Shown here piece after piece: positions 714 to 7,881 of a stretch of 64,000 bases of DNA (the stretch's first letter is position 1; each line of letters begins with the position of its first letter). Made by a program: the position numbers and the translations under genes. Source of the DNA: Escherichia coli. GTDB lineage: Bacteria; Pseudomonadota; Gammaproteobacteria; Enterobacterales; Enterobacteriaceae. Below the pieces are notes generated by a model. That model searched no databases, was not told where the DNA came from, and saw nothing but the letters and a program-made list of their open reading frames with translations. The DNA lies in the NCBI RefSeq assembly GCF_024502345.1, contig NZ_JALDNN010000001.1. The stretch is one strand, 5' to 3'.

Positions 714-967
714 ATTGATAATATGTTTTCAAATGACTTTTAGTTACATTTTATTTACGTTGTTTGCTTTTTCTGGATTATGCCCTTAAATTTAGTTCTA
801 ACCTGGCATTAAATCCCGTTTTTTTTAGATTTTTAGAGTTTTATAAAGAAATTAGCATGTGCTGTTTTAACTGAAAATGAGAGAAGGCTTGCGCACAATT
901 GCTATTGATTTTCTTACTTATTTTCTCAATCACAAAACGCCTTAAATAGTTCAAAAAACAATCAACA

Positions 968-1038
968 CCCCATAATCGATATTATTTATGGGGAGAAACG
1001 ACGTTTAAGCCTGAAAGTGGGGGAGTGGCACTTTCAGG
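968..1038. other. two adjacent perfect hairpins (8-bp stem at 968..993, 10-bp stem at 1010..1038) upstream of integrase gene
   Basis: ccccataa/ttatgggg and cctgaaagtg/cactttcagg inverted repeats read directly; no flanking T-run. Confidence 0.3.
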
Positions 1039-1204
1039 AGATTAAGGAGGCAAACAGGCCTCTTTAACGCGTGTTTTTCTCACCAAAATGTCAGAGTCGG
1101 TGATTTGCACTTCAGTATTTCTGCCAATACTATTCGCTCCATGTGCTGGCCAGCATCTAACTCAATACCCTTAATCTGTATTAATTGAGCGAGATGTATG
1201 CATT

Positions 1205-2515
1205 ATGAAACCCGATAGTTCTTTAAACCAAATAACGCAGACAATGAAACGGAATGATGTTGATTCTGTGGATAGTCGCTTTTTTGAGTCAGCGCAAAAC
1301 ATGAAAACCAGCGTTGACGTTGAAGATTGCTGCGTTGAAGTGATGGTTCGACATCACAGCCCAAAGAATCAAAGAGAGGCATTCACTAAAGCTTTTTTTG
1401 ATGAGTGTAAAATCCGTGCAGTACAAACTGGCCGGACTATCGAAGCCAGCGATACAAAATGTACCGGGCTTAAGGCTATATTCCACTCATCCGGACGCAT
1501 TAAGTTTATTGTCCGCAAAAGTATTCGCGGAAAGAATGTTTACGTTGCAGTAGGAAGTTACCCTGAATTTTCCATTAATAACGCAAGGGAACATGCCTTT
1601 AAAATAATTCAGGAGCTTAAGGCTTCCGTTGAGACTTATGGTGAGCGTTTTCTTACTCACAGTAAAATGACGTTTAATGAGCTTGTGGATGAGTATGAGA
1701 AAAGCGTACTCAGCACGGGCGTTAAGCGTTCAGCTAACACCGATCTTTCTAAGATCCGTAAATACCTGCGCCCTCTTCTCGGTGCCAAAAAGCTGGCAGG
1801 TATGACGGAGGCAGATATTCTGAGCTATCTGCATAATCTCGATCTCAAGCCTGCCACCCGCAACCGCCATCTGGCGCTCATTAAAGCGGTGTTTACCAGG
1901 GCAATACGCATGGGATACATCAGCCGCTCTCCGGCGCTTTATATCAAAGCGCTGCCTGAAGTGACGTCAGATCGCCGTGCCATGGATGACTCCCAGCTTC
2001 AGCGCTGGATGGACGTCTGTGAGCGCTGGCGTAATGGTAAACCCGATCATGAAGCCCTTGCTCTTCTCATGTTCCTTGCCCTGACGGGGCTGCGTCTGGG
2101 GGAAACCCGTCACCTTCGTCTTGAAGATGTGGACTGGAGCCGCAAGGTTATCACCCTTCGCCATACCAAAAACGGCAAACTACGCCGTGTACCGGTATGT
2201 GATAAGGCTTTCGTTCTTCTGACAGAACAGCGTCAGCATCTGGGTGATGAAGGCTGGGTATTTCCGGGCAAGGGAACCGACAATCCGGTTGCTGAGCCGC
2301 GTCGCCTGCAAAAACGACTTTGTGAGGCTGCGGGTATTCCACCGTTCACCATCCATGAGATGCGTCATACCTTTGCGACAAAGCTCATTGAGAGCGGGGC
2401 CGACATTCACACCGTCAAAGACTTATTGGGTCACAGCACTATCAAAGTAACGGAGCTTTACTTGCACGCTTCCCCGGCGCGTTACCACGAAGTCGTTAAC
2501 CGGGCGATGGGGTAA
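1205..2515 (+). CDS. tyrosine recombinase / P4-type integrase (436 aa)
   Basis: C-terminal catalytic motif HxxR...Y (HTFATKLIESGADIHTVKDLLGHSTIKVTELYLH); N-terminal arm-binding-like segment. Confidence 0.85.
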   Translation: MKPDSSLNQITQTMKRNDVDSVDSRFFESAQNMKTSVDVEDCCVEVMVRHHSPKNQREAFTKAFFDECKIRAVQTGRTIEASDTKCTGLKAIFHSSGRIKFIVRKSIRGKNVYVAVGSYPEFSINNAREHAFKIIQELKASVETYGERFLTHSKMTFNELVDEYEKSVLSTGVKRSANTDLSKIRKYLRPLLGAKKLAGMTEADILSYLHNLDLKPATRNRHLALIKAVFTRAIRMGYISRSPALYIKALPEVTSDRRAMDDSQLQRWMDVCERWRNGKPDHEALALLMFLALTGLRLGETRHLRLEDVDWSRKVITLRHTKNGKLRRVPVCDKAFVLLTEQRQHLGDEGWVFPGKGTDNPVAEPRRLQKRLCEAAGIPPFTIHEMRHTFATKLIESGADIHTVKDLLGHSTIKVTELYLHASPARYHEVVNRAMG

Positions 2516-2584
2516 CAACCTTCACTCAACGGTATGGTTTTTAACTATGGTTCTGATGCACCCGTTTTCTGACGGTGGCGTAAT

Positions 2585-4513
2585 TTGATGGTAATACACA
2601 TGAATAAAAAAGTGACAACTAATGTTCCTAAGGTTTCCGGGATTAAGCGTATTCGCGCTTTTGCTGACCGCGATAAAAATTTCAACAAAATGTCGGAAGC
2701 AATTATCAGGCGTGCTGAAAACACTGAGGTCGGTGAAGATGATATCGCTTCACTCGGTATTGGTGATGGGCTGCCACGGCATTATGTGAATACGGCTAAT
2801 GGCCTTTTCTACATCGGTGGACAGAAACCTGTGCAGGTTTGCACCACGCCAGTTGTGCCTGTCGCCCTGTTTTGTGGAAAAGATAAGGAGTCCGGTCTTG
2901 GGATCAGCCTGATGACCGGTAACGGGCTGGGTAAGTATGTTAAGGCCCTGGTACGCTTTGAGGATATTGTTCAGAGCGGTGCTCAGGTAGTAGGCAAACT
3001 GGCAGATCGTGGATTTTGTGTTGGCTCCTCTCCACAGCAGTTTGCCCTTTTTGACCGTTTTCTTCAGCGCTGCCGGAGTTTACCGCTGCCTGTCTATCTG
3101 ATGGCAGATGCGATGGGATTCGTTTCGGAGGATATGGCCTTTTTACATGGTCATGAGCCCGTTGTGACCTCTCTGACCGGGTTTGATTATCTACTGCCGG
3201 GATTCCGCGTGCGTCCCGGACTGCACAAAGGTGGGGCCCTGGAGGAGTGGATTAACCTCATCCGGGAAAATGTCCATGGCTGGGCGCAGACCTTTGCACT
3301 GAGTGCGTCCTTTGCTTCGATGCTTCTGGTTCCTGCCGGTATGGATGTGGGCATGTTTCATTTTCACGGCGTATCCACCACCGGTAAAACGCTTCTCCTG
3401 ATGCTGGCTGCATCGGTCCATGGTGATGGCAGCGAGCCGGGTAGTGGGGGGAATGTAAATATTATTCGCTGGAATACCACGCCTAACGCGATGGAGCGCC
3501 TTCTCGCTGACTATTCCGGTCTGGTCGCCTGCGTCGATGAACTGGGTGCGAGTAATCATAAGCAACTTTCCTCACTGCTTTACAACATTACGTCAGGTAC
3601 GGCAAAAGAGCGCCTGAACCGTGGCCTGACGGCAGATGAGCCGTTTAAATGGCGCATGTTTATTCTCTCCACCGGTGAGATGTCAATCTCCGAAAAGCTG
3701 GCTGAACAGAAAGCCGTGTTACAGGGAGGGCAGGAGCACAGGGCCATCAGTATGGAACTGTTGCCTGAGGATGCTCAAAAACCGGATGAACCGGTATCAG
3801 AAACACGTGCCCGTGCAGATGCACTGAAGACGGGGCTGGCAGAGGCTTATGGTCATGCCGGGCCTGCATTTATCGGCAAACTGTTATCCGGGAAAAATAC
3901 GGCTGGCGGTCTTCGCACCTACGCAGAGTTTTCATCCTGGCTCCAGGAACAGACAGATGATTGCTGTAACGCACTGGAAGAGGCCCTGAGGGATGAGGGG
4001 CGTGATATTACCCGCGTTCAGCGGCGCGGACTGAAAAGATTTGCGCTGGTATGGCTGGCAGGAGAGAAGGCGCTGAAATATGGCCTTTTACCTTTCGAAA
4101 GCGATGCGGTGGCTGAATCCGTTATGTCCGCTGCACGACGCTGGCTGGATGATAACCAGAATCAGTATAACCCGGTGCGTAACATGCTGGAGGAGCTTCA
4201 GCTGACGCTGGTGACAAAAAGCAGCAGGCACTTTATCACCCTGCGTGACGAACATGCCCGATGCCCGGGAGATATGTGGGGATTCGTCCATTACAAAACC
4301 GGCGACTTCCTGATTTATGAATCGGTGTTTGAAAAGCTCTGTTCTGAAAAGGGACTTAAGACCGTTGATGTGGCCAGACCGTTAGAGCGTTCCGGTTATC
4401 TGCTTGGCGAAAGTGCCGGACACTATAAAAAAAGAGCGCTGAAGACGATGGCGCAGTCTTACTACCAGGTCAAAAAAGCGTTTCTGAAATGCAATGTGAT
4501 GACCGAATTTTAA
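2585..4513 (+). CDS. DUF927-like / P4 alpha-like SF3 helicase-domain protein (642 aa)
   Basis: Walker A GVSTTGKT and Walker B-like VACVDELG; immediately downstream of integrase; domain assignment from memory. Confidence 0.6.
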   Translation: MMVIHMNKKVTTNVPKVSGIKRIRAFADRDKNFNKMSEAIIRRAENTEVGEDDIASLGIGDGLPRHYVNTANGLFYIGGQKPVQVCTTPVVPVALFCGKDKESGLGISLMTGNGLGKYVKALVRFEDIVQSGAQVVGKLADRGFCVGSSPQQFALFDRFLQRCRSLPLPVYLMADAMGFVSEDMAFLHGHEPVVTSLTGFDYLLPGFRVRPGLHKGGALEEWINLIRENVHGWAQTFALSASFASMLLVPAGMDVGMFHFHGVSTTGKTLLLMLAASVHGDGSEPGSGGNVNIIRWNTTPNAMERLLADYSGLVACVDELGASNHKQLSSLLYNITSGTAKERLNRGLTADEPFKWRMFILSTGEMSISEKLAEQKAVLQGGQEHRAISMELLPEDAQKPDEPVSETRARADALKTGLAEAYGHAGPAFIGKLLSGKNTAGGLRTYAEFSSWLQEQTDDCCNALEEALRDEGRDITRVQRRGLKRFALVWLAGEKALKYGLLPFESDAVAESVMSAARRWLDDNQNQYNPVRNMLEELQLTLVTKSSRHFITLRDEHARCPGDMWGFVHYKTGDFLIYESVFEKLCSEKGLKTVDVARPLERSGYLLGESAGHYKKRALKTMAQSYYQVKKAFLKCNVMTEF

Positions 4514-4562
4514 CCCTGAATAAAACCATTTTGACTGAATAACAACGAATAGAAGGTGATGT

Positions 4563-4919
4563 ATGATTTTTGAATCAGACCAGTACTATGACGGTTTTCC
4601 TCACGCTATCAGCAGCGAAAATGAAGAAAAAACCTCATTCAATGATTACGCTCTGGTTAACACACTGGCGGAGTGCCTGTATCACGACATTTCTCGTGAA
4701 ATCTTCGATGGCAGTGAGCCGGCGCTCCGGGCCGTCATTGCCAACGGTCAGATTAAATTCCTGGCTCGTTATACGCTTAGAGGGGCCTGCTATTATGAAC
4801 CCCTCGGCACATTTCCACGTATGCCCGTTAACGTCGCGCGTGAACGAGCACGTGAACTCTATAACAGATTTGATGATCACCGGGTGCCGGATGAAGAATA
4901 TGGGGCCATCCCGTTCTGA
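4563..4919 (+). CDS. hypothetical protein (118 aa)
   Basis: ORF 50 bp downstream of the helicase-like gene on the same strand. Confidence 0.45.
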   Translation: MIFESDQYYDGFPHAISSENEEKTSFNDYALVNTLAECLYHDISREIFDGSEPALRAVIANGQIKFLARYTLRGACYYEPLGTFPRMPVNVARERARELYNRFDDHRVPDEEYGAIPF

Positions 4920-4925
4920 CTGATG

Positions 4926-4958
4926 GCTGAACAGTAAAAAAAAGCAGGGGCACTTGCC
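4926..4958. terminator. putative bidirectional terminator between convergent genes
   Basis: Imperfect hairpin gcagggg...cctctgc flanked by A-run and T-run. Confidence 0.35.
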
Positions 4959-4973
4959 TCTGCTTTTCTGTTA

Positions 4974-6158
4974 TCACAAGGACGGTAGCTGAGCCGTTAT
5001 CCTTTCCGCCAGTAACTGACTGGTGTTCTGTAAGCGCTGAGGATGAAGATGCGCATACCGTTGTGAAGACTGACTGCTGCGGTGCCCCAGTTGAGCCTGA
5101 ACGTCATACAGTGTTCCGCCGTAGGACACGATGAGGGCGGCAACCGAATGGCGGCAGGTATGAATACACACTTCTTTGTCGAAAATTCCCGCCCGACGAA
5201 CGATACGCTGAAAGGCTTTAACGGGGTTATTCAGCGGCATTCCTTGTTTTTTACCGATAAACAACCACGGATTTCCACGCTGTGTTGGCAGTGTTCTGAT
5301 TACGTCCATCGCCAGTGAATTAAGATGAACAATCCGTCCATAGCCATTCTTGGTTTCCGGGAGCCATAGGGTGCGTTTAACCGGGTCAACATGCTCCCAC
5401 TTAGCCAGACGCAGTTCATCACGACGAAGGCCGGTCAGTAACAGCAGTTTGACATAGCGGGCAGCTACGGGGCTGGTATCGTTATCGGCGGAGAGAAAAA
5501 TACGACGAATTTCGTCCTCGGTAAAATAACGCTGTCGGGCGTTGTTCTCCCTGAGTAGCTGTACCACCCTTGCCGGATGAACAGAGGTCATGCTTTGCCT
5601 TCCGGCCCATGTAAAGACGGCTTTAATGAGTACGATGACACGGTTACAGGTAGCCGCTGACAGGGAAGTACTTAACGTCTGCTGAAGGCGCAGAATGCTC
5701 GCTGGTGTGATATCGCTCAGCAGCCTCTGACCAATGGCGGGACGGATATGATCGCGGTAGCGCTGAACATCCTTTCCCCAACTGCGTTTAGCGGATTTTG
5801 CCCATGGCAGATAATGCTGATTAAAGAGTTCATCGAACGTCAGCTCCATTCTCTTGTTTTCACGCTCCTGCTTAGGGTCAGTGCCGGTGGCAAGGGAACG
5901 TTTGTGTTCTATGGCAATCTGACGAGCAAGATTGACGTCCACTTCAGGCCAGTGACCAATGGCGATGGCGCGTTTTCGTCCATGATAAAGGTAGCGTAGC
6001 AAAAACTTTTTACGACCTTCTCTTCTGCTGACCAGACACTTGAGGCCGGAAATCTCAGTGTCGCTGTATTCGGCATCGGTACTGCGTGCATCGGATGTGT
6101 TAGGGGGCAGGGATTTAATGAGCTGATTAGTAAAACGGAAGCGTTTGGGGGTGGACAT
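4974..6158 (-). CDS. P4-type tyrosine integrase (394 aa)
   Basis: Catalytic motif HTCRHSVAALIVSYGG...LGHRSSQSSQRYAH; arm-binding-like N-terminus; tRNA-proximal. Confidence 0.85.
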   Translation of the reverse strand: MSTPKRFRFTNQLIKSLPPNTSDARSTDAEYSDTEISGLKCLVSRREGRKKFLLRYLYHGRKRAIAIGHWPEVDVNLARQIAIEHKRSLATGTDPKQERENKRMELTFDELFNQHYLPWAKSAKRSWGKDVQRYRDHIRPAIGQRLLSDITPASILRLQQTLSTSLSAATCNRVIVLIKAVFTWAGRQSMTSVHPARVVQLLRENNARQRYFTEDEIRRIFLSADNDTSPVAARYVKLLLLTGLRRDELRLAKWEHVDPVKRTLWLPETKNGYGRIVHLNSLAMDVIRTLPTQRGNPWLFIGKKQGMPLNNPVKAFQRIVRRAGIFDKEVCIHTCRHSVAALIVSYGGTLYDVQAQLGHRSSQSSQRYAHLHPQRLQNTSQLLAERITAQLPSL

Positions 6159-6503
6159 ATAACCTCCTGTGACTGGTGTAAAGAACGTCAGGGTTGCCCC
6201 ATCCCCGGCACGGCGCTGTTAATGGCTGAGTTGATTTTCTGGTGTGGCTAAGGGAATGCTGGTGCCACATGGGATGAATGAAGACGAGAAATACAGCAAA
6301 AACAGGCGTTACGGTCTGCTTCTGGTCTTAAGGGGAAGATTGCCGTTGGGGAAGAGTTCACAGAAATAATATGTGTTTCAGTCGGGTATAATTACATGTG
6401 ATAAGGGCAAAGAGCGTGCTTTGCTAAAATTTGACATGTTGAAGTCCACTCTTTTTAACGATGTCGTTATGGACGACATGGCGAGTCTTGCTTAGATAAT
6501 TAA

Positions 6504-7091
6504 TCAAAATACTGTGACTTTGGACCCACGTTTACCACATTTCGAGCACTTGAGCCGAGTTTTAAGGTCTTCTAGAGTTACTCCCATTGCAACATACTGC
6601 TTAAGGTCGTTCAAAGTAAGGATTGTGGGGAGACGACAAAAAAATCCAGAGGCGCAACATACCAGCATCTCCGAGCCGTTTTTTAACCAGTCCTCAAGAT
6701 TATCGTGCGATCTCGTTAGTCGTTCGATATCCGCTCTCCACTGCTGGATTTCATTACCGTTCCAGTCGATATTTAGCTCGATTTGTTTGGCAACGAACCG
6801 GTGTTTACCTCTGTTAACTGTGGGTTCATAGTCCTTACGTTGATCTTTGATGAGATCAGCCTCATAGAGGAAATCATCGTTTTTGTTGTCGGTATAATCA
6901 AAAATTACCTTAATTAAATCAATATCAACGTTTTGTTTTTTGATGAATAAACCCTGTGTTCCGCTTCCGTTCAAGTCCCGGCTAAAGTTAATGTTGAGAT
7001 GGCGGCGGAGTGAGAAGAAATAGCTGTGGCCGTGCATAGCCAATGCAAGTCTGGCTATGTCATTGCAGTTGTAGGGTGTGTGTGTATCCAT
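6504..7091 (-). CDS. hypothetical protein (195 aa), AT-rich, C-terminal CxxC
   Basis: ORF between integrase and tRNA-Phe; low GC; ends CSKCGKRGSK. Confidence 0.45.
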   Translation of the reverse strand: MDTHTPYNCNDIARLALAMHGHSYFFSLRRHLNINFSRDLNGSGTQGLFIKKQNVDIDLIKVIFDYTDNKNDDFLYEADLIKDQRKDYEPTVNRGKHRFVAKQIELNIDWNGNEIQQWRADIERLTRSHDNLEDWLKNGSEMLVCCASGFFCRLPTILTLNDLKQYVAMGVTLEDLKTRLKCSKCGKRGSKVTVF

Positions 7092-7607
7092 GATGTTACC
7101 TTTAATTCATATTCGGTCGAGAGCGTCAGGAAACTATCCTAATATACCTTTTTTCTACACCAGTATTTGGATCAATTTTCATCCCTTTGGCCTGCTTCTT
7201 GTTGATTAACTCTCAGCGATGTTTGAAATAGGCCATCAGTGGTCAGAATCATTTTTTACTTCCACTTTTTGCTCAGATTTGACCCTAAGGTCTAAGTTCC
7301 AATACGTTTCGCTCAATTACTATCACCCCTGATAAATTATTCTATGATGACGTGGAGGGCGGGGGATTCAGGCAATGTTAAGAAATGAAAGGTTTAAATG
7401 CGAATATTACAGGTGGAGGAGGTGGTGGATACCCCCGACTGACAAGGGGAGTTGATGGCGCTGAGTTCACCCCCTTGCCTGAAGAGGAGTCTCCCCGGTC
7501 TTCCCCCGGGGGGGATGGCAGGTAATTTGTTGTTAAATAAAGTAAATTATGAAATCCCCCATTTCCCCCGTATTCTCTGCTTCATTATGAATAATCTTAG
7601 AGAAAGG

Positions 7608-7764
7608 AACCGTAAAGGACCGTAGAAAGACCGTAGCTGTGAGGTGAGGGAAGGCACATCAGAGGATGTTGAGGTGTCTAAAAGTAACGAACATCTGCAA
7701 AAATGGTGAAAAATCCAGCAAGAAAATAACGTGTTGCAACGACCAGAAATCTACCGTAGCTAAG
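7608..7764. repeat. four direct copies of accgta(g/a) near the tRNA-Phe 3' end; candidate integrase arm sites
   Basis: Copies at 7608, 7619, 7630 and 7753 read directly. Confidence 0.3.
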
Positions 7765-7805
7765 AAAGGAAAAAGCCCCGCTTTTCAGCGAGGCCTTATG
7801 AATAT

Positions 7806-7881
7806 TGGTGCCCGGACTCGGAATCGAACCAAGGACACGGGGATTTTCAATCCCCTGCTCTACCGACTGAGCTATCCGGGC
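7806..7881 (-). tRNA. pheV: tRNA-Phe (anticodon GAA)
   Basis: Reverse complement reads GCCCGGATAGCTCAGTCGGTAGAGCAGGGGATTGAAAATCCCCGTGTCCTTGGTTCGATTCCGAGTCCGGGCACCA, the canonical E. coli tRNA-Phe. Confidence 0.95.

What the first reader, a model, noticed from the sequence alone, without database searches (positions are those of the whole stretch)
4563..4919. 118-aa orphan protein as the last gene of the integrase module
I recognise no family or motif. It sits where small regulators or effectors are found in satellites. A second overlapping frame (4570..4923) is almost as long, so the true frame is uncertain.
Basis: seen in the sequence. Interest (0 to 1): 0.4.

Follow-up and report, generated by a model that had tools for sequence, protein, structure and literature searches.

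The report
Stand-alone integrase arm domain with SSB-like tail
The 118-codon ORF is a real, conserved gene, not an orphan: it encodes a free-standing copy of the DNA-binding "arm" domain of a phage-type integrase and ends in the same Ile-Pro-Phe tip as the bacterial single-strand-binding protein SSB, but its function in a tRNA-Phe genomic island is untested.

Summary
The ORF at 4563..4919 (+) is confirmed and is the true frame. Moderately diverged homologues give dN/dS of about 0.2. The overlapping frame 4570..4923 has 2-7 stops in most homologues.

It is the third gene of an integrase / Cch-like DUF927 helicase / X operon, which ends at a strong hairpin terminator. The operon lies in a pheV/pheU genomic island restricted to a few Enterobacterales. 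The gene was found in no phage, plasmid or IMG/VR record.

Two new points emerged:
- The basic DNA-binding core is flanked by acidic disordered segments, and nearly all alleles end in [I/L]-P-F-COOH, the tip of SSB. The tip codons vary synonymously.
- It is the most variable gene of the locus.

The function is inferred only. My best guess is a sequence-specific DNA-binding adaptor or regulator of the island's excision-replication module. A recombination-modulator role is nearly as likely. An AlphaFold test of the tail docking onto Pol III chi gave no support.

The parts
4553..4559 (+). Shine-Dalgarno sequence AAGGTGA, ending 3 nt before the ATG
   Evidence: Read directly from the sequence. No convincing separate promoter lies in the 49-nt gap after the DUF927 stop, so the gene is probably co-transcribed with DUF927.
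4563..4919 (+). Gene for a 118-aa stand-alone arm-type DNA-binding protein (stop codon included)
   Evidence: ORF. Same-length (357 nt) RefSeq CDS at the same gene position, WP_029403623.1. dN/dS about 0.2. 44 homologous clusters of 71-145 aa, full-length ones 107-145 aa.
4563..4643 (+). Residues 1-27: acidic segment (net -5) with low model confidence that carries the conserved F-P-x-A-I motif (F12 and P13 invariant)
   Evidence: pLDDT below 50 for residues 1-10 and 13-21. Invariant columns. Charge.
4644..4871 (+). Residues 28-103: arm-type DNA-binding domain (helix, four strands, helix); residues 53-103 have net charge +6
4872..4916 (+). Residues 104-118: disordered acidic/aromatic tail (net -4) ending in Ile-Pro-Phe (codons 4908-4916)
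   Evidence: pLDDT 44 for residues 111-118. The tip is present in all but two full-length in-frame cluster representatives. Tip codons vary synonymously between alleles.
4943..4966 (.). GC-rich hairpin between an A8 run and a U-tract: a probable bidirectional terminator shared with the convergent integrase
   Evidence: dG -23.6 kcal/mol, z -5.2. Found by the terminator scan. Conserved in homologous loci; a related hairpin is kept in L033/L034, where int2 is absent.
2585..4513 (+). Upstream cistron: DUF927 / Cch-like self-loading replicative helicase (PGAP start about 2600)
   Evidence: Pfam DUF927 E 7e-34 and HTH_56. PDB 5dgk (SCCmec Cch) E 1e-14 and 8tch (pathogenicity island protein) E 7e-12. 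NCBIfam Cch1 E 2e-22, below cutoff.
1205..2515 (+). First cistron: tyrosine integrase int1 (the true start is probably downstream of 1205). Its arm domain is the closest relative of the 118-aa protein.
   Evidence: Pfam Phage_integrase E 5e-32. BLASTP of the 118-aa protein to int1 residues 80-131: 37% identity, E 1e-8. PGAP calls shorter versions.
727..1381 (.). AT-rich (28-44% GC) hypervariable stretch upstream of and running into the 5' end of int1. It is a candidate control or binding region for the module; no sites were identified.
   Evidence: No DNA match to L019, L020 or L015 although both flanks are 94-97% identical. Composition. No iterons found.
4974..6158 (-). Convergent P4-like integrase int2, the tRNA-Phe island integrase
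   Evidence: Pfam Arm-DNA-bind_3 E 2.5e-13 and Phage_integrase E 2.7e-23. Present about 50-130 bp downstream in nearly all loci, absent in L033/L034.
7806..7881 (-). tRNA-Phe (GAA), the island's integration site; its 3' end faces the island
   Evidence: ARAGORN. Rfam tRNA 68 bits. The same tRNA flanks homologous islands at pheV or pheU.

Best explanation
SHOWN. 4563..4919 is a functional gene. Its product is a free-standing paralogue of the arm-type DNA-binding domain of P4-like tyrosine integrases, closest to the N-terminus of the integrase (int1) two genes upstream. The positively charged fold (residues 53-103, net +6) sits between an acidic N-terminal segment with a conserved FPxAI motif and a flexible acidic/aromatic tail. 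The tail varies in length but ends in [I/L]-P-F-COOH, the same tip as the SSB C-terminus (DDDIPF). The gene is the third cistron of an int1 / Cch-like DUF927 helicase / X operon inside a pheV/pheU genomic island of Enterobacterales, and it is the fastest-diverging gene of that locus. INFERRED (roughly one chance in three). The protein binds specific duplex DNA in the island through its beta-sheet, as integrase arm domains do. It acts as an adaptor or regulator of the island's excision-replication module. While bound to DNA, its SSB-like tip occupies an SSB-tip-binding pocket, either on a host replication or repair protein or on the island's own helicase, and so recruits or gates that partner. 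The module encodes a helicase but has no recognisable primase domain. DNA binding, the binding sites and the tail's partner are all untested.
Against: No biochemical data exist. No repeated candidate binding sites were found in or around the module. Pairing with the helicase is not strict: L032 carries a 93%-identical copy of the L019 allele next to a DUF927 only 49% identical. The gene stays intact after two independent deletions of int1 and most of DUF927 (L002-L004 and L012-L014), which would be unexpected for a pure helicase cofactor. One common allele (P0039, L016-L018) has lost the tail and keeps only an out-of-frame 'IP-stop' relic. In an AF2 model of E. coli chi fused by a linker to the protein, the tail stayed below pLDDT 50. 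Co-variation with DUF927 could reflect physical linkage alone. The Pfam match is below the gathering score (18.7 against 27 bits).
Confidence: 0.4

Rival explanations
1. Recombination modulator. As a catalytically dead copy of an integrase arm domain, it occupies arm-type sites or joins the intasome. It thereby inhibits or directs recombination by int1 or int2, acting as an anti-integrase or unconventional directionality factor, for example to stabilise the integrated island.
For: The fold is the integrase arm domain. Its closest relative is int1's own N-terminus. It always lies beside at least one integrase gene. It is retained intact with int2 after loss of int1 and DUF927 in two independent deletions, and with int1 where int2 is absent. 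From my own knowledge, the isolated lambda Int N-domain modulates the catalytic fragment in trans.
Against: There is no specificity match. Window and L019 have int1 cores 96-97% identical and int2 99% identical, yet this protein is only 37% identical. Each allele is no closer to its cognate int1 arm domain than to foreign ones. Known directionality factors are HTH or winged-helix proteins (my own knowledge). The conserved SSB-like tip is left unexplained.
Confidence: 0.25
2. Conflict or decoy protein. The acidic tail with the SSB tip titrates proteins that normally dock on SSB, whether host nucleases and helicases or proteins of an invading phage. The fast-evolving surface reflects an arms race.
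For: It is the most variable gene of the locus. Among close relatives dN/dS is mostly 0.35-1.4 (median about 0.6), against 0.12-0.41 for DUF927 and 0.03-0.14 for int2 at similar dS. The island carries defence-type cargo on both sides. The tip is invariant while the rest varies.
Against: It is a backbone gene of the island, not part of the variable cargo. It has no PADLOC or PHROG match. The small gene gives wide error on dN/dS. The confidently folded, positively charged DNA-binding core would not be needed for a pure decoy. The tail did not dock on chi in the AF2 test.
Confidence: 0.12
3. Transcriptional autoregulator of the int1-DUF927-X operon. It would bind the hypervariable AT-rich region upstream of int1, in the way AP2-type sheet domains act as transcription factors.
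Against: No operator-like repeats were found. In L005 the upstream region is replaced although the protein is still 69% identical. The SSB-like tip is unexplained.
Confidence: 0.1
4. A decaying relic: the 5' fragment of an integrase gene truncated when another element was inserted, still open by chance.
For: It resembles an integrase N-terminus, and many database entries named 'Arm DNA-binding domain-containing protein' are such fragments (my own knowledge). Frameshifted copies exist (P0018, P0021, P0028, P0029). One allele lost the tail.
Against: Purifying selection, with dN/dS about 0.2. Length is conserved down to 33% identity. It has its own RBS and terminator. The C-terminal tip is conserved with synonymous codon changes. 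It forms a family clearly separate from integrases. No integrase-like sequence follows the stop codon: only 54 nt separate it from the int2 stop.
Confidence: 0.04
5. The true gene is the overlapping frame 4570..4923.
For: That frame is open for 117 codons in the window and in L005.
Against: It has a TTG start with no RBS, no Pfam match and 2-7 stops in six other homologues. Database proteins that end in this frame (…GCRMKNMGPSRSD) begin in the 4563 frame, so they are frameshift mutants.
Confidence: 0.01

Closest known systems
Arm-type binding domains of P4-like integrases (HPI integrase 3JTZ/3RMP, HAI7 integrase 3JU0; Pfam PF13356 Arm-DNA-bind_3, formerly DUF4102)
   Different: No core-binding or catalytic domain follows. 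The protein is free-standing, has acidic extensions on both sides and an SSB-like tip, is acidic overall (pI 4.8), and scores below the Pfam gathering threshold.
SSB C-terminal tip (SSB-Ct, DDDIPF in E. coli)
   Same: A flexible, acidic tail of variable length ends in Ile/Leu-Pro-Phe with a free carboxylate, conserved at the amino-acid level (motif as described in PMC5872125 and PMC3632105).
   Different: No OB fold. The residues before the tip are Tyr/Glu/His-rich rather than Asp-Asp-Asp. Binding to any SSB partner is untested, and an AF2 fusion with chi did not order the tail.
LP1413, the small DNA-binding protein encoded with the DUF927 helicase Cch in SCCmec pattern-1 elements
   Same: A small DNA-binding protein shares an operon with a Cch-type self-loading helicase, next to the element's recombinase genes (PMC7581432; helicase homology to 5dgk).
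   Different: No sequence or fold relationship is known. LP1413 binds single-stranded DNA (PMC7581432); I did not verify the SCC gene order. The hosts and the recombinase classes differ.
Recombination directionality factors (Xis, AlpA, Hef, TorI type)
   Same: Small, element-encoded DNA-binding proteins found near integrase genes.
   Different: Those are HTH or winged-helix proteins (my own knowledge). This protein has the integrase's own arm-domain fold and does not co-vary with either integrase.

Membership tests
Pfam PF13356 Arm-DNA-bind_3 (DUF4102) | Sequence match to the family HMM at or above the gathering score (27 bits) | tested here: not met
   18.7 bits, E 0.0019, residues 46-106. 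Three homologue clusters (P0011, P0016, P0027) do carry a precomputed PF13356 hit. NCBIfam: no hit.
Pfam PF13356 Arm-DNA-bind_3 (DUF4102) | Three-dimensional fold of the P4-like integrase arm domain (helix, antiparallel sheet, helix) | tested here: met
Pfam PF13356 Arm-DNA-bind_3 (DUF4102) | Homology to arm domains of bona fide integrases | tested here: met
   BLASTP E 1e-8 to int1 and 4e-5 to int2. hhalign probability 97.8%, E 1.1e-12 to int1 N-termini.
Pfam PF13356 Arm-DNA-bind_3 (DUF4102) | Binds arm-type DNA repeats | not testable with these tools
   No repeated candidate sites were found. EMSA or DAP-seq is needed.
Tyrosine integrase (functional or pseudogene fragment) | Core-binding and catalytic domains (R-K-H-R-H-Y), or their remnants, downstream of the arm domain | tested here: not met
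   The ORF stops after residue 118, and only 54 nt separate it from the stop of the convergent int2. There is no Phage_integrase hit. All 44 family members are at most 145 aa.
Tyrosine integrase (functional or pseudogene fragment) | Neutral decay expected of a fragment (dN/dS near 1, variable length, loss of the start) | tested here: not met
   dN/dS 0.14-0.28 at moderate divergence. Length is conserved, and the RBS and tip are kept. Caveat: dN/dS is 0.6-1.4 in some very close pairs with few substitutions.
SSB (single-stranded DNA-binding protein) | OB-fold ssDNA-binding domain | tested here: not met
SSB (single-stranded DNA-binding protein) | Acidic flexible C-terminus ending in [I/L]-P-F | tested here: met
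   …DEEYGAIPF in the window; AYENIPF, DYEHIPF, AYEYIPF and TYADLPF in other alleles. The tail is disordered in the model.
SSB (single-stranded DNA-binding protein) | The tip docks on SSB-interacting proteins | tested here: inconclusive
   In the AF2 model of chi, a 40-aa linker and this protein, the tail stayed below pLDDT 50. No positive control or PAE was available.
Recombination directionality factor / excisionase | HTH or winged-helix fold; cognate pairing with one integrase | tested here: not met
   The fold is an arm domain. There is no co-variation with int1 or int2.
Phage satellite (P4-like, PICI) accessory gene | Occurs in elements recognised as viral or satellite; related proteins in phage protein families | tested here: not met
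   No tblastn hit in phage records. None in IMG/VR. No PHROG.

The most novel reading that the evidence does not exclude
The protein is a site-specific duplex-DNA-binding adaptor that carries a copy of the SSB C-terminal tip. It thereby brings the host's SSB-interacting machinery (primase DnaG, the chi subunit of the clamp loader, PriA) to the origin of an excised genomic island that encodes only a Cch-like helicase. An integrase arm domain would then have been re-used as an origin-tethered 'SSB tail on double-stranded DNA'.
Probability: 0.12. Interest if true: 0.7.

Novelty: new variant of a known kind. Interest (0 to 1): 0.4.

Why it matters
Arm-type domains are known only as the N-terminal parts of integrases. 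A conserved, selected, free-standing copy with its own linear motifs would show that this DNA reader has been recruited for another job inside a mobile element. If the SSB-like tip is functional, it would be a rare case of a non-SSB protein using the SSB docking code. It would also give a testable handle on two open questions: how helicase-only islands (relatives of SCCmec and SaPI replication modules) recruit host primase and polymerase, and how they control excision. In practical terms, the gene is a compact marker for one family of pheV/pheU islands that carry defence cargo, present in about 2% of complete E. coli genomes.

Tried and rejected
1. The alternative frame 4570..4923 is rejected: it has stops in homologues.
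2. The pseudogene-fragment idea is rejected by dN/dS, conserved length and the conserved tip.
3. I looked for iterons or arm-type repeats in the gene, in the intergenic gaps and in the upstream AT-rich region of five alleles. Nothing was convincing.
4. I tested whether each allele resembles its own int1 arm domain more than foreign ones. There is no diagonal signal.
5. I considered that int1-DUF927 is an insertion next to an older gene. It is not: the DUF927-less loci are deletions that keep remnants of int1 and DUF927.
6. I considered that the recurrent homology break near 4907 marks an att site. This is rejected: the break simply follows the variable tail, and conservation resumes at the terminator.
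7. I searched Pectobacterium L023 for a tRNA-Phe-derived direct repeat next to the gene. None was found; that island is truncated about 25 nt inside the gene.
8. The gene has no match in phage, plasmid or IMG/VR collections and no PHROG, PADLOC or NCBIfam hit.
9. In the AF2 model of chi fused to the protein, the tail stayed disordered. Without a control or PAE this is inconclusive.
10. The afdb50 fold library was unavailable.
11. Literature searches for DUF4102, for DUF927 with integrase, for the pheV island and for SSB-tip mimics found nothing on this protein.

Full report
**Observation.** An AAGGTGA ribosome-binding site ends 3 nt before the start. Twenty-four nt after the stop there is a 10-bp GC-rich hairpin between an A8 run and a U-tract (dG -23.6 kcal/mol, z -5.2). 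The hairpin is shared with the convergent integrase gene, which ends at 4974. RefSeq annotates a CDS of the same length (357 nt) at the matching position in 99.5%-identical E. coli chromosomes as WP_029403623.1, "Arm DNA-binding domain-containing protein". The second open frame (4570..4923) is real in the window. In homologues the same frame carries 3, 2, 7, 6, 5 and 4 stops (L002, L006, L009, L012, L015, L016). The few database proteins that end in that frame start in the 4563 frame, so they are frameshift mutants. In the 4563 frame, dN/dS is 0.14-0.28 for moderately diverged pairs. The frame question is settled.

**A separate small family.** Single-sequence and profile searches of 5.8 billion and 1.8 billion proteins return about 45 small clusters, full-length members 107-145 aa. 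No full-length integrase is among them. The one large protein returned, P0040 (2161 aa), is noted under "Noticed in passing".

**Anatomy beyond the fold.** The core (residues 53-103) has net charge +6. It is flanked by acidic segments: residues 1-52 net -10 and residues 104-118 net -4, with an overall pI of 4.8. Residues 1-21 and the last 8-15 residues have low model confidence. Both regions nevertheless contain conserved short motifs.
- Near the N-terminus, F12 and P13 are invariant within an FPxAI motif.
- The extreme C-terminus is Ile/Leu-Pro-Phe.

The tip is present in all full-length, in-frame cluster representatives except P0039 and P0050; P0036 has four extra residues after IPF. It is kept in alleles only 33-47% identical to the window protein. 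It is kept even though the tail before it varies by up to 27 residues, through repeated acidic/aromatic units such as DYxYNPT. The three tip codons differ synonymously between alleles (ATC/ATT/CTC, CCG/CCA, TTC/TTT), so selection acts on the amino acids. An acidic flexible tail ending in I/L-P-F-COOH is the hallmark of bacterial SSB, whose DDDIPF tip docks onto DnaG, chi and many other proteins (PMC5872125, PMC3632105). This resemblance is an observation. Whether the tail uses the same pockets is not known.

**Genomic setting.** The window shows one end of a genomic island integrated at tRNA-Phe (7806-7881, minus strand), next to a DUF554 (yqgA-like) gene, which indicates the pheV site. In related genomes the same island sits at pheV or pheU. 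In strain ABWA45 the complete island is about 21.7 kb. Its order is:
- tRNA-Phe;
- a short variable cargo region;
- int2 (pointing away from the tRNA);
- this gene, the DUF927 gene and int1 (all three converging on int2);
- nine conserved backbone genes (two hypotheticals of 117 and 143 aa, DUF2787, LRAT-like, a DeoR-like 79-aa protein, a hypothetical of 127 aa, DUF3944, a 237-aa HTH regulator (HTH_DeoR, weak WYL hit), and a hypothetical of 103 aa);
- a second cargo region;
- an integrase remnant.

Both cargo regions hold defence-type genes in different genomes: BrxC/D-like, dynamin-like, SMC/AAA_23 with trypsin-CTD4, a deaminase, GmrSD and type I R-M. The DUF927 protein is a relative of the SCCmec helicase Cch (5dgk, E 1e-14) and of a staphylococcal pathogenicity-island protein (8tch, E 7e-12), with no primase domain detected.

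**Distribution.** The family is narrow. It occurs in E. coli, Salmonella, Enterobacter, Kluyvera, Buttiauxella, Pseudocitrobacter and Pectobacterium, with one metagenome bin labelled Acinetobacter (P0022). It gave 8 loci among 100,044 species representatives. Of 5426 complete E. coli genomes, 74 carry the window allele and 43 a second allele. It has no match in phage records, plasmids or IMG/VR.

**Which neighbour it goes with.**
- It always follows DUF927, or a remnant of it, on the same strand, with gaps of about 50-175 bp and one terminator.
- It is not tied to int2. In two Enterobacter contigs the string int1-DUF927-X-terminator is followed directly by a chromosomal EAL-domain gene.
- It is not strictly tied to int1 and DUF927 either. 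Two independent deletions (L002-L004 and L012-L014) removed int1 and most of DUF927, leaving different remnants, and kept this gene intact. In Pectobacterium the island is truncated about 25 nt inside its 5' end.
- The locus is mosaic. Between the window and L019/L020 the backbone, int1 (97% DNA identity from 1382 to 2509), int2 and the tRNA side are 95-97% identical. The block 2510-4907 (DUF927 plus this gene) and the AT-rich stretch 727-1381 upstream of int1 are replaced.
- Across nine loci the identity of this protein correlates best with that of DUF927 (Spearman 0.50), and less with int1 (0.22), int2 (-0.06) and the backbone gene (0.12). One clear exception exists: L032 has a 93%-identical copy of the L019 allele beside a DUF927 only 49% identical.
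- Alleles are no more similar to their cognate int1 arm domain than to foreign ones.

**Rate of evolution.** This is the most divergent gene of the locus. Among close relatives its dN/dS is mostly 0.35-1.4 (median about 0.6). At comparable dS, DUF927 gives 0.12-0.41 and int2 gives 0.03-0.14. The numbers rest on few substitutions. They fit a protein with a conserved scaffold and tip and rapidly changing surface patches, for example residues 73-77 and 88-91.

**Mechanism.** Shown: the gene is real and under selection; it has the arm-domain fold and is paralogous to int1; it has an SSB-like tip under amino-acid selection; it is in an operon with a Cch-like helicase; it is hypervariable. Inferred: it binds specific duplex DNA and uses its disordered ends as docking peptides.

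My preferred reading (about one in three) is an adaptor or regulator of the island's excision-replication module whose tip engages an SSB-tip pocket on a host replisome or repair protein or on the island helicase. This reading accounts for four things: the tip, the operon, the partial co-variation with DUF927, and the absence of a primase gene. It also has a loose precedent in the LP1413-Cch operon of SCCmec (PMC7581432).

Several results weigh against it. The gene persists without DUF927. One allele has lost the tail. I found no binding-site repeats. In an AF2 model of E. coli chi linked to the protein, the tail stayed disordered; this last result is inconclusive, because no positive control or PAE was available.

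The main rival (about one in four) is a recombination modulator that competes at arm sites or joins the intasome. It fits the fold and the gene's retention next to whichever integrase remains. It does not fit the lack of co-variation with either integrase, and it leaves the tip unexplained. Lesser rivals are an SSB-tail decoy in a genetic conflict, a transcriptional autoregulator acting on 727-1381, and a decaying integrase fragment, the last largely excluded.

**Comparison with known families.** By fold and homology the protein belongs to the arm-type (PF13356/DUF4102) domain superfamily. It fails the Pfam gathering score and lacks everything else that defines an integrase. It is not an SSB (no OB fold), although it carries the SSB tip. 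It is not a conventional excisionase (wrong fold). It is not in any phage, satellite or defence family library.

**Verdict.** The domain identity is already in RefSeq. What is new here is the stand-alone, selected status, the SSB-like tip, the linkage pattern and the hypervariability. I rate it a new variant of a known kind, with interest 0.4.

Noticed in passing
window 6159-7805 (ORF 6504-7091, minus strand): The stretch between int2 and tRNA-Phe is a cargo hotspot. The window has a 195-aa ORF with a C-terminal CxxC motif that matches phrog_30162 (unknown function, E 4e-75). Other genomes carry BrxC/D-like, dynamin-like, SMC/trypsin-CTD4/MComp1, deaminase or other genes at the same place.
   Followed up: partly
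window 727-1381: An AT-rich (28-44% GC) stretch upstream of and running into int1 has no DNA match in L019, L020 or L015, although both flanks are 94-97% identical. It is also replaced in L005 and L009. I could not tell whether it holds a promoter, an origin or att-type sites.
   Followed up: partly
window 1205-1381: The longest-ORF start of int1 (1205) is probably too far upstream. PGAP calls starts 39-44 codons later in near-identical genomes, and this 5' part lies in the hypervariable stretch.
   Followed up: partly
L002:7663-7878 and L012:7403-7927: Two independent deletions removed int1 and most of DUF927. They left different remnants (53-aa int1 stubs; 75 nt against about 360 nt of the DUF927 3' end), and both spared the 118-aa gene.
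   Followed up: yes
L016:8280-8420 (also L017, L018): The P0039 allele ends early (…DDRYTTLS) and has lost the IPF tip. An out-of-frame 'ATT CCA TAA' (Ile-Pro-stop) just before the terminator looks like a relic of the tip. This allele is absent from complete RefSeq E. coli genomes.
   Followed up: partly
L033 and L034, 6369-6500: In two Enterobacter contigs the island ends right after the gene. int2 and tRNA-Phe are absent, a related terminator hairpin is kept, and a chromosomal CSS-motif/EAL gene follows. Whether this is a second integration site used by int1 or a rearrangement is unknown.
   Followed up: partly
proteins P0020, P0022, P0023, P0024, P0027: The tail shows length polymorphism through repeated acidic/aromatic units (for example EYEEGYFDYNPTDYDYNPTDYEYIQF). 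This adds up to 27 residues between the fold and the tip.
   Followed up: no
protein P0040 (2161 aa): A very large protein matched residues 56-87 of the query in seven separate stretches (E 2e-13). It is possibly a repeat protein with a similar beta-hairpin motif, and is probably unrelated to the finding.
   Followed up: no
L032 (Enterobacter sichuanensis) against L019/L030: The same allele of the small protein (89-93% identity) sits next to two very different DUF927 alleles (49% identity). The helicase gene can therefore be swapped independently of the small gene.
   Followed up: partly
fusion model mcf16b0b50dd3, residues 201-210 (residues 14-23 of the 118-aa protein): In the chi-linker fusion model, mean pLDDT around the FPxAI motif rose to 78 (block 201-210 = protein residues 14-23), against 46 for residues 11-20 and 78 for residues 21-30 in the stand-alone model. 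The tool gives no coordinates or PAE, so this cannot be interpreted.
   Followed up: no
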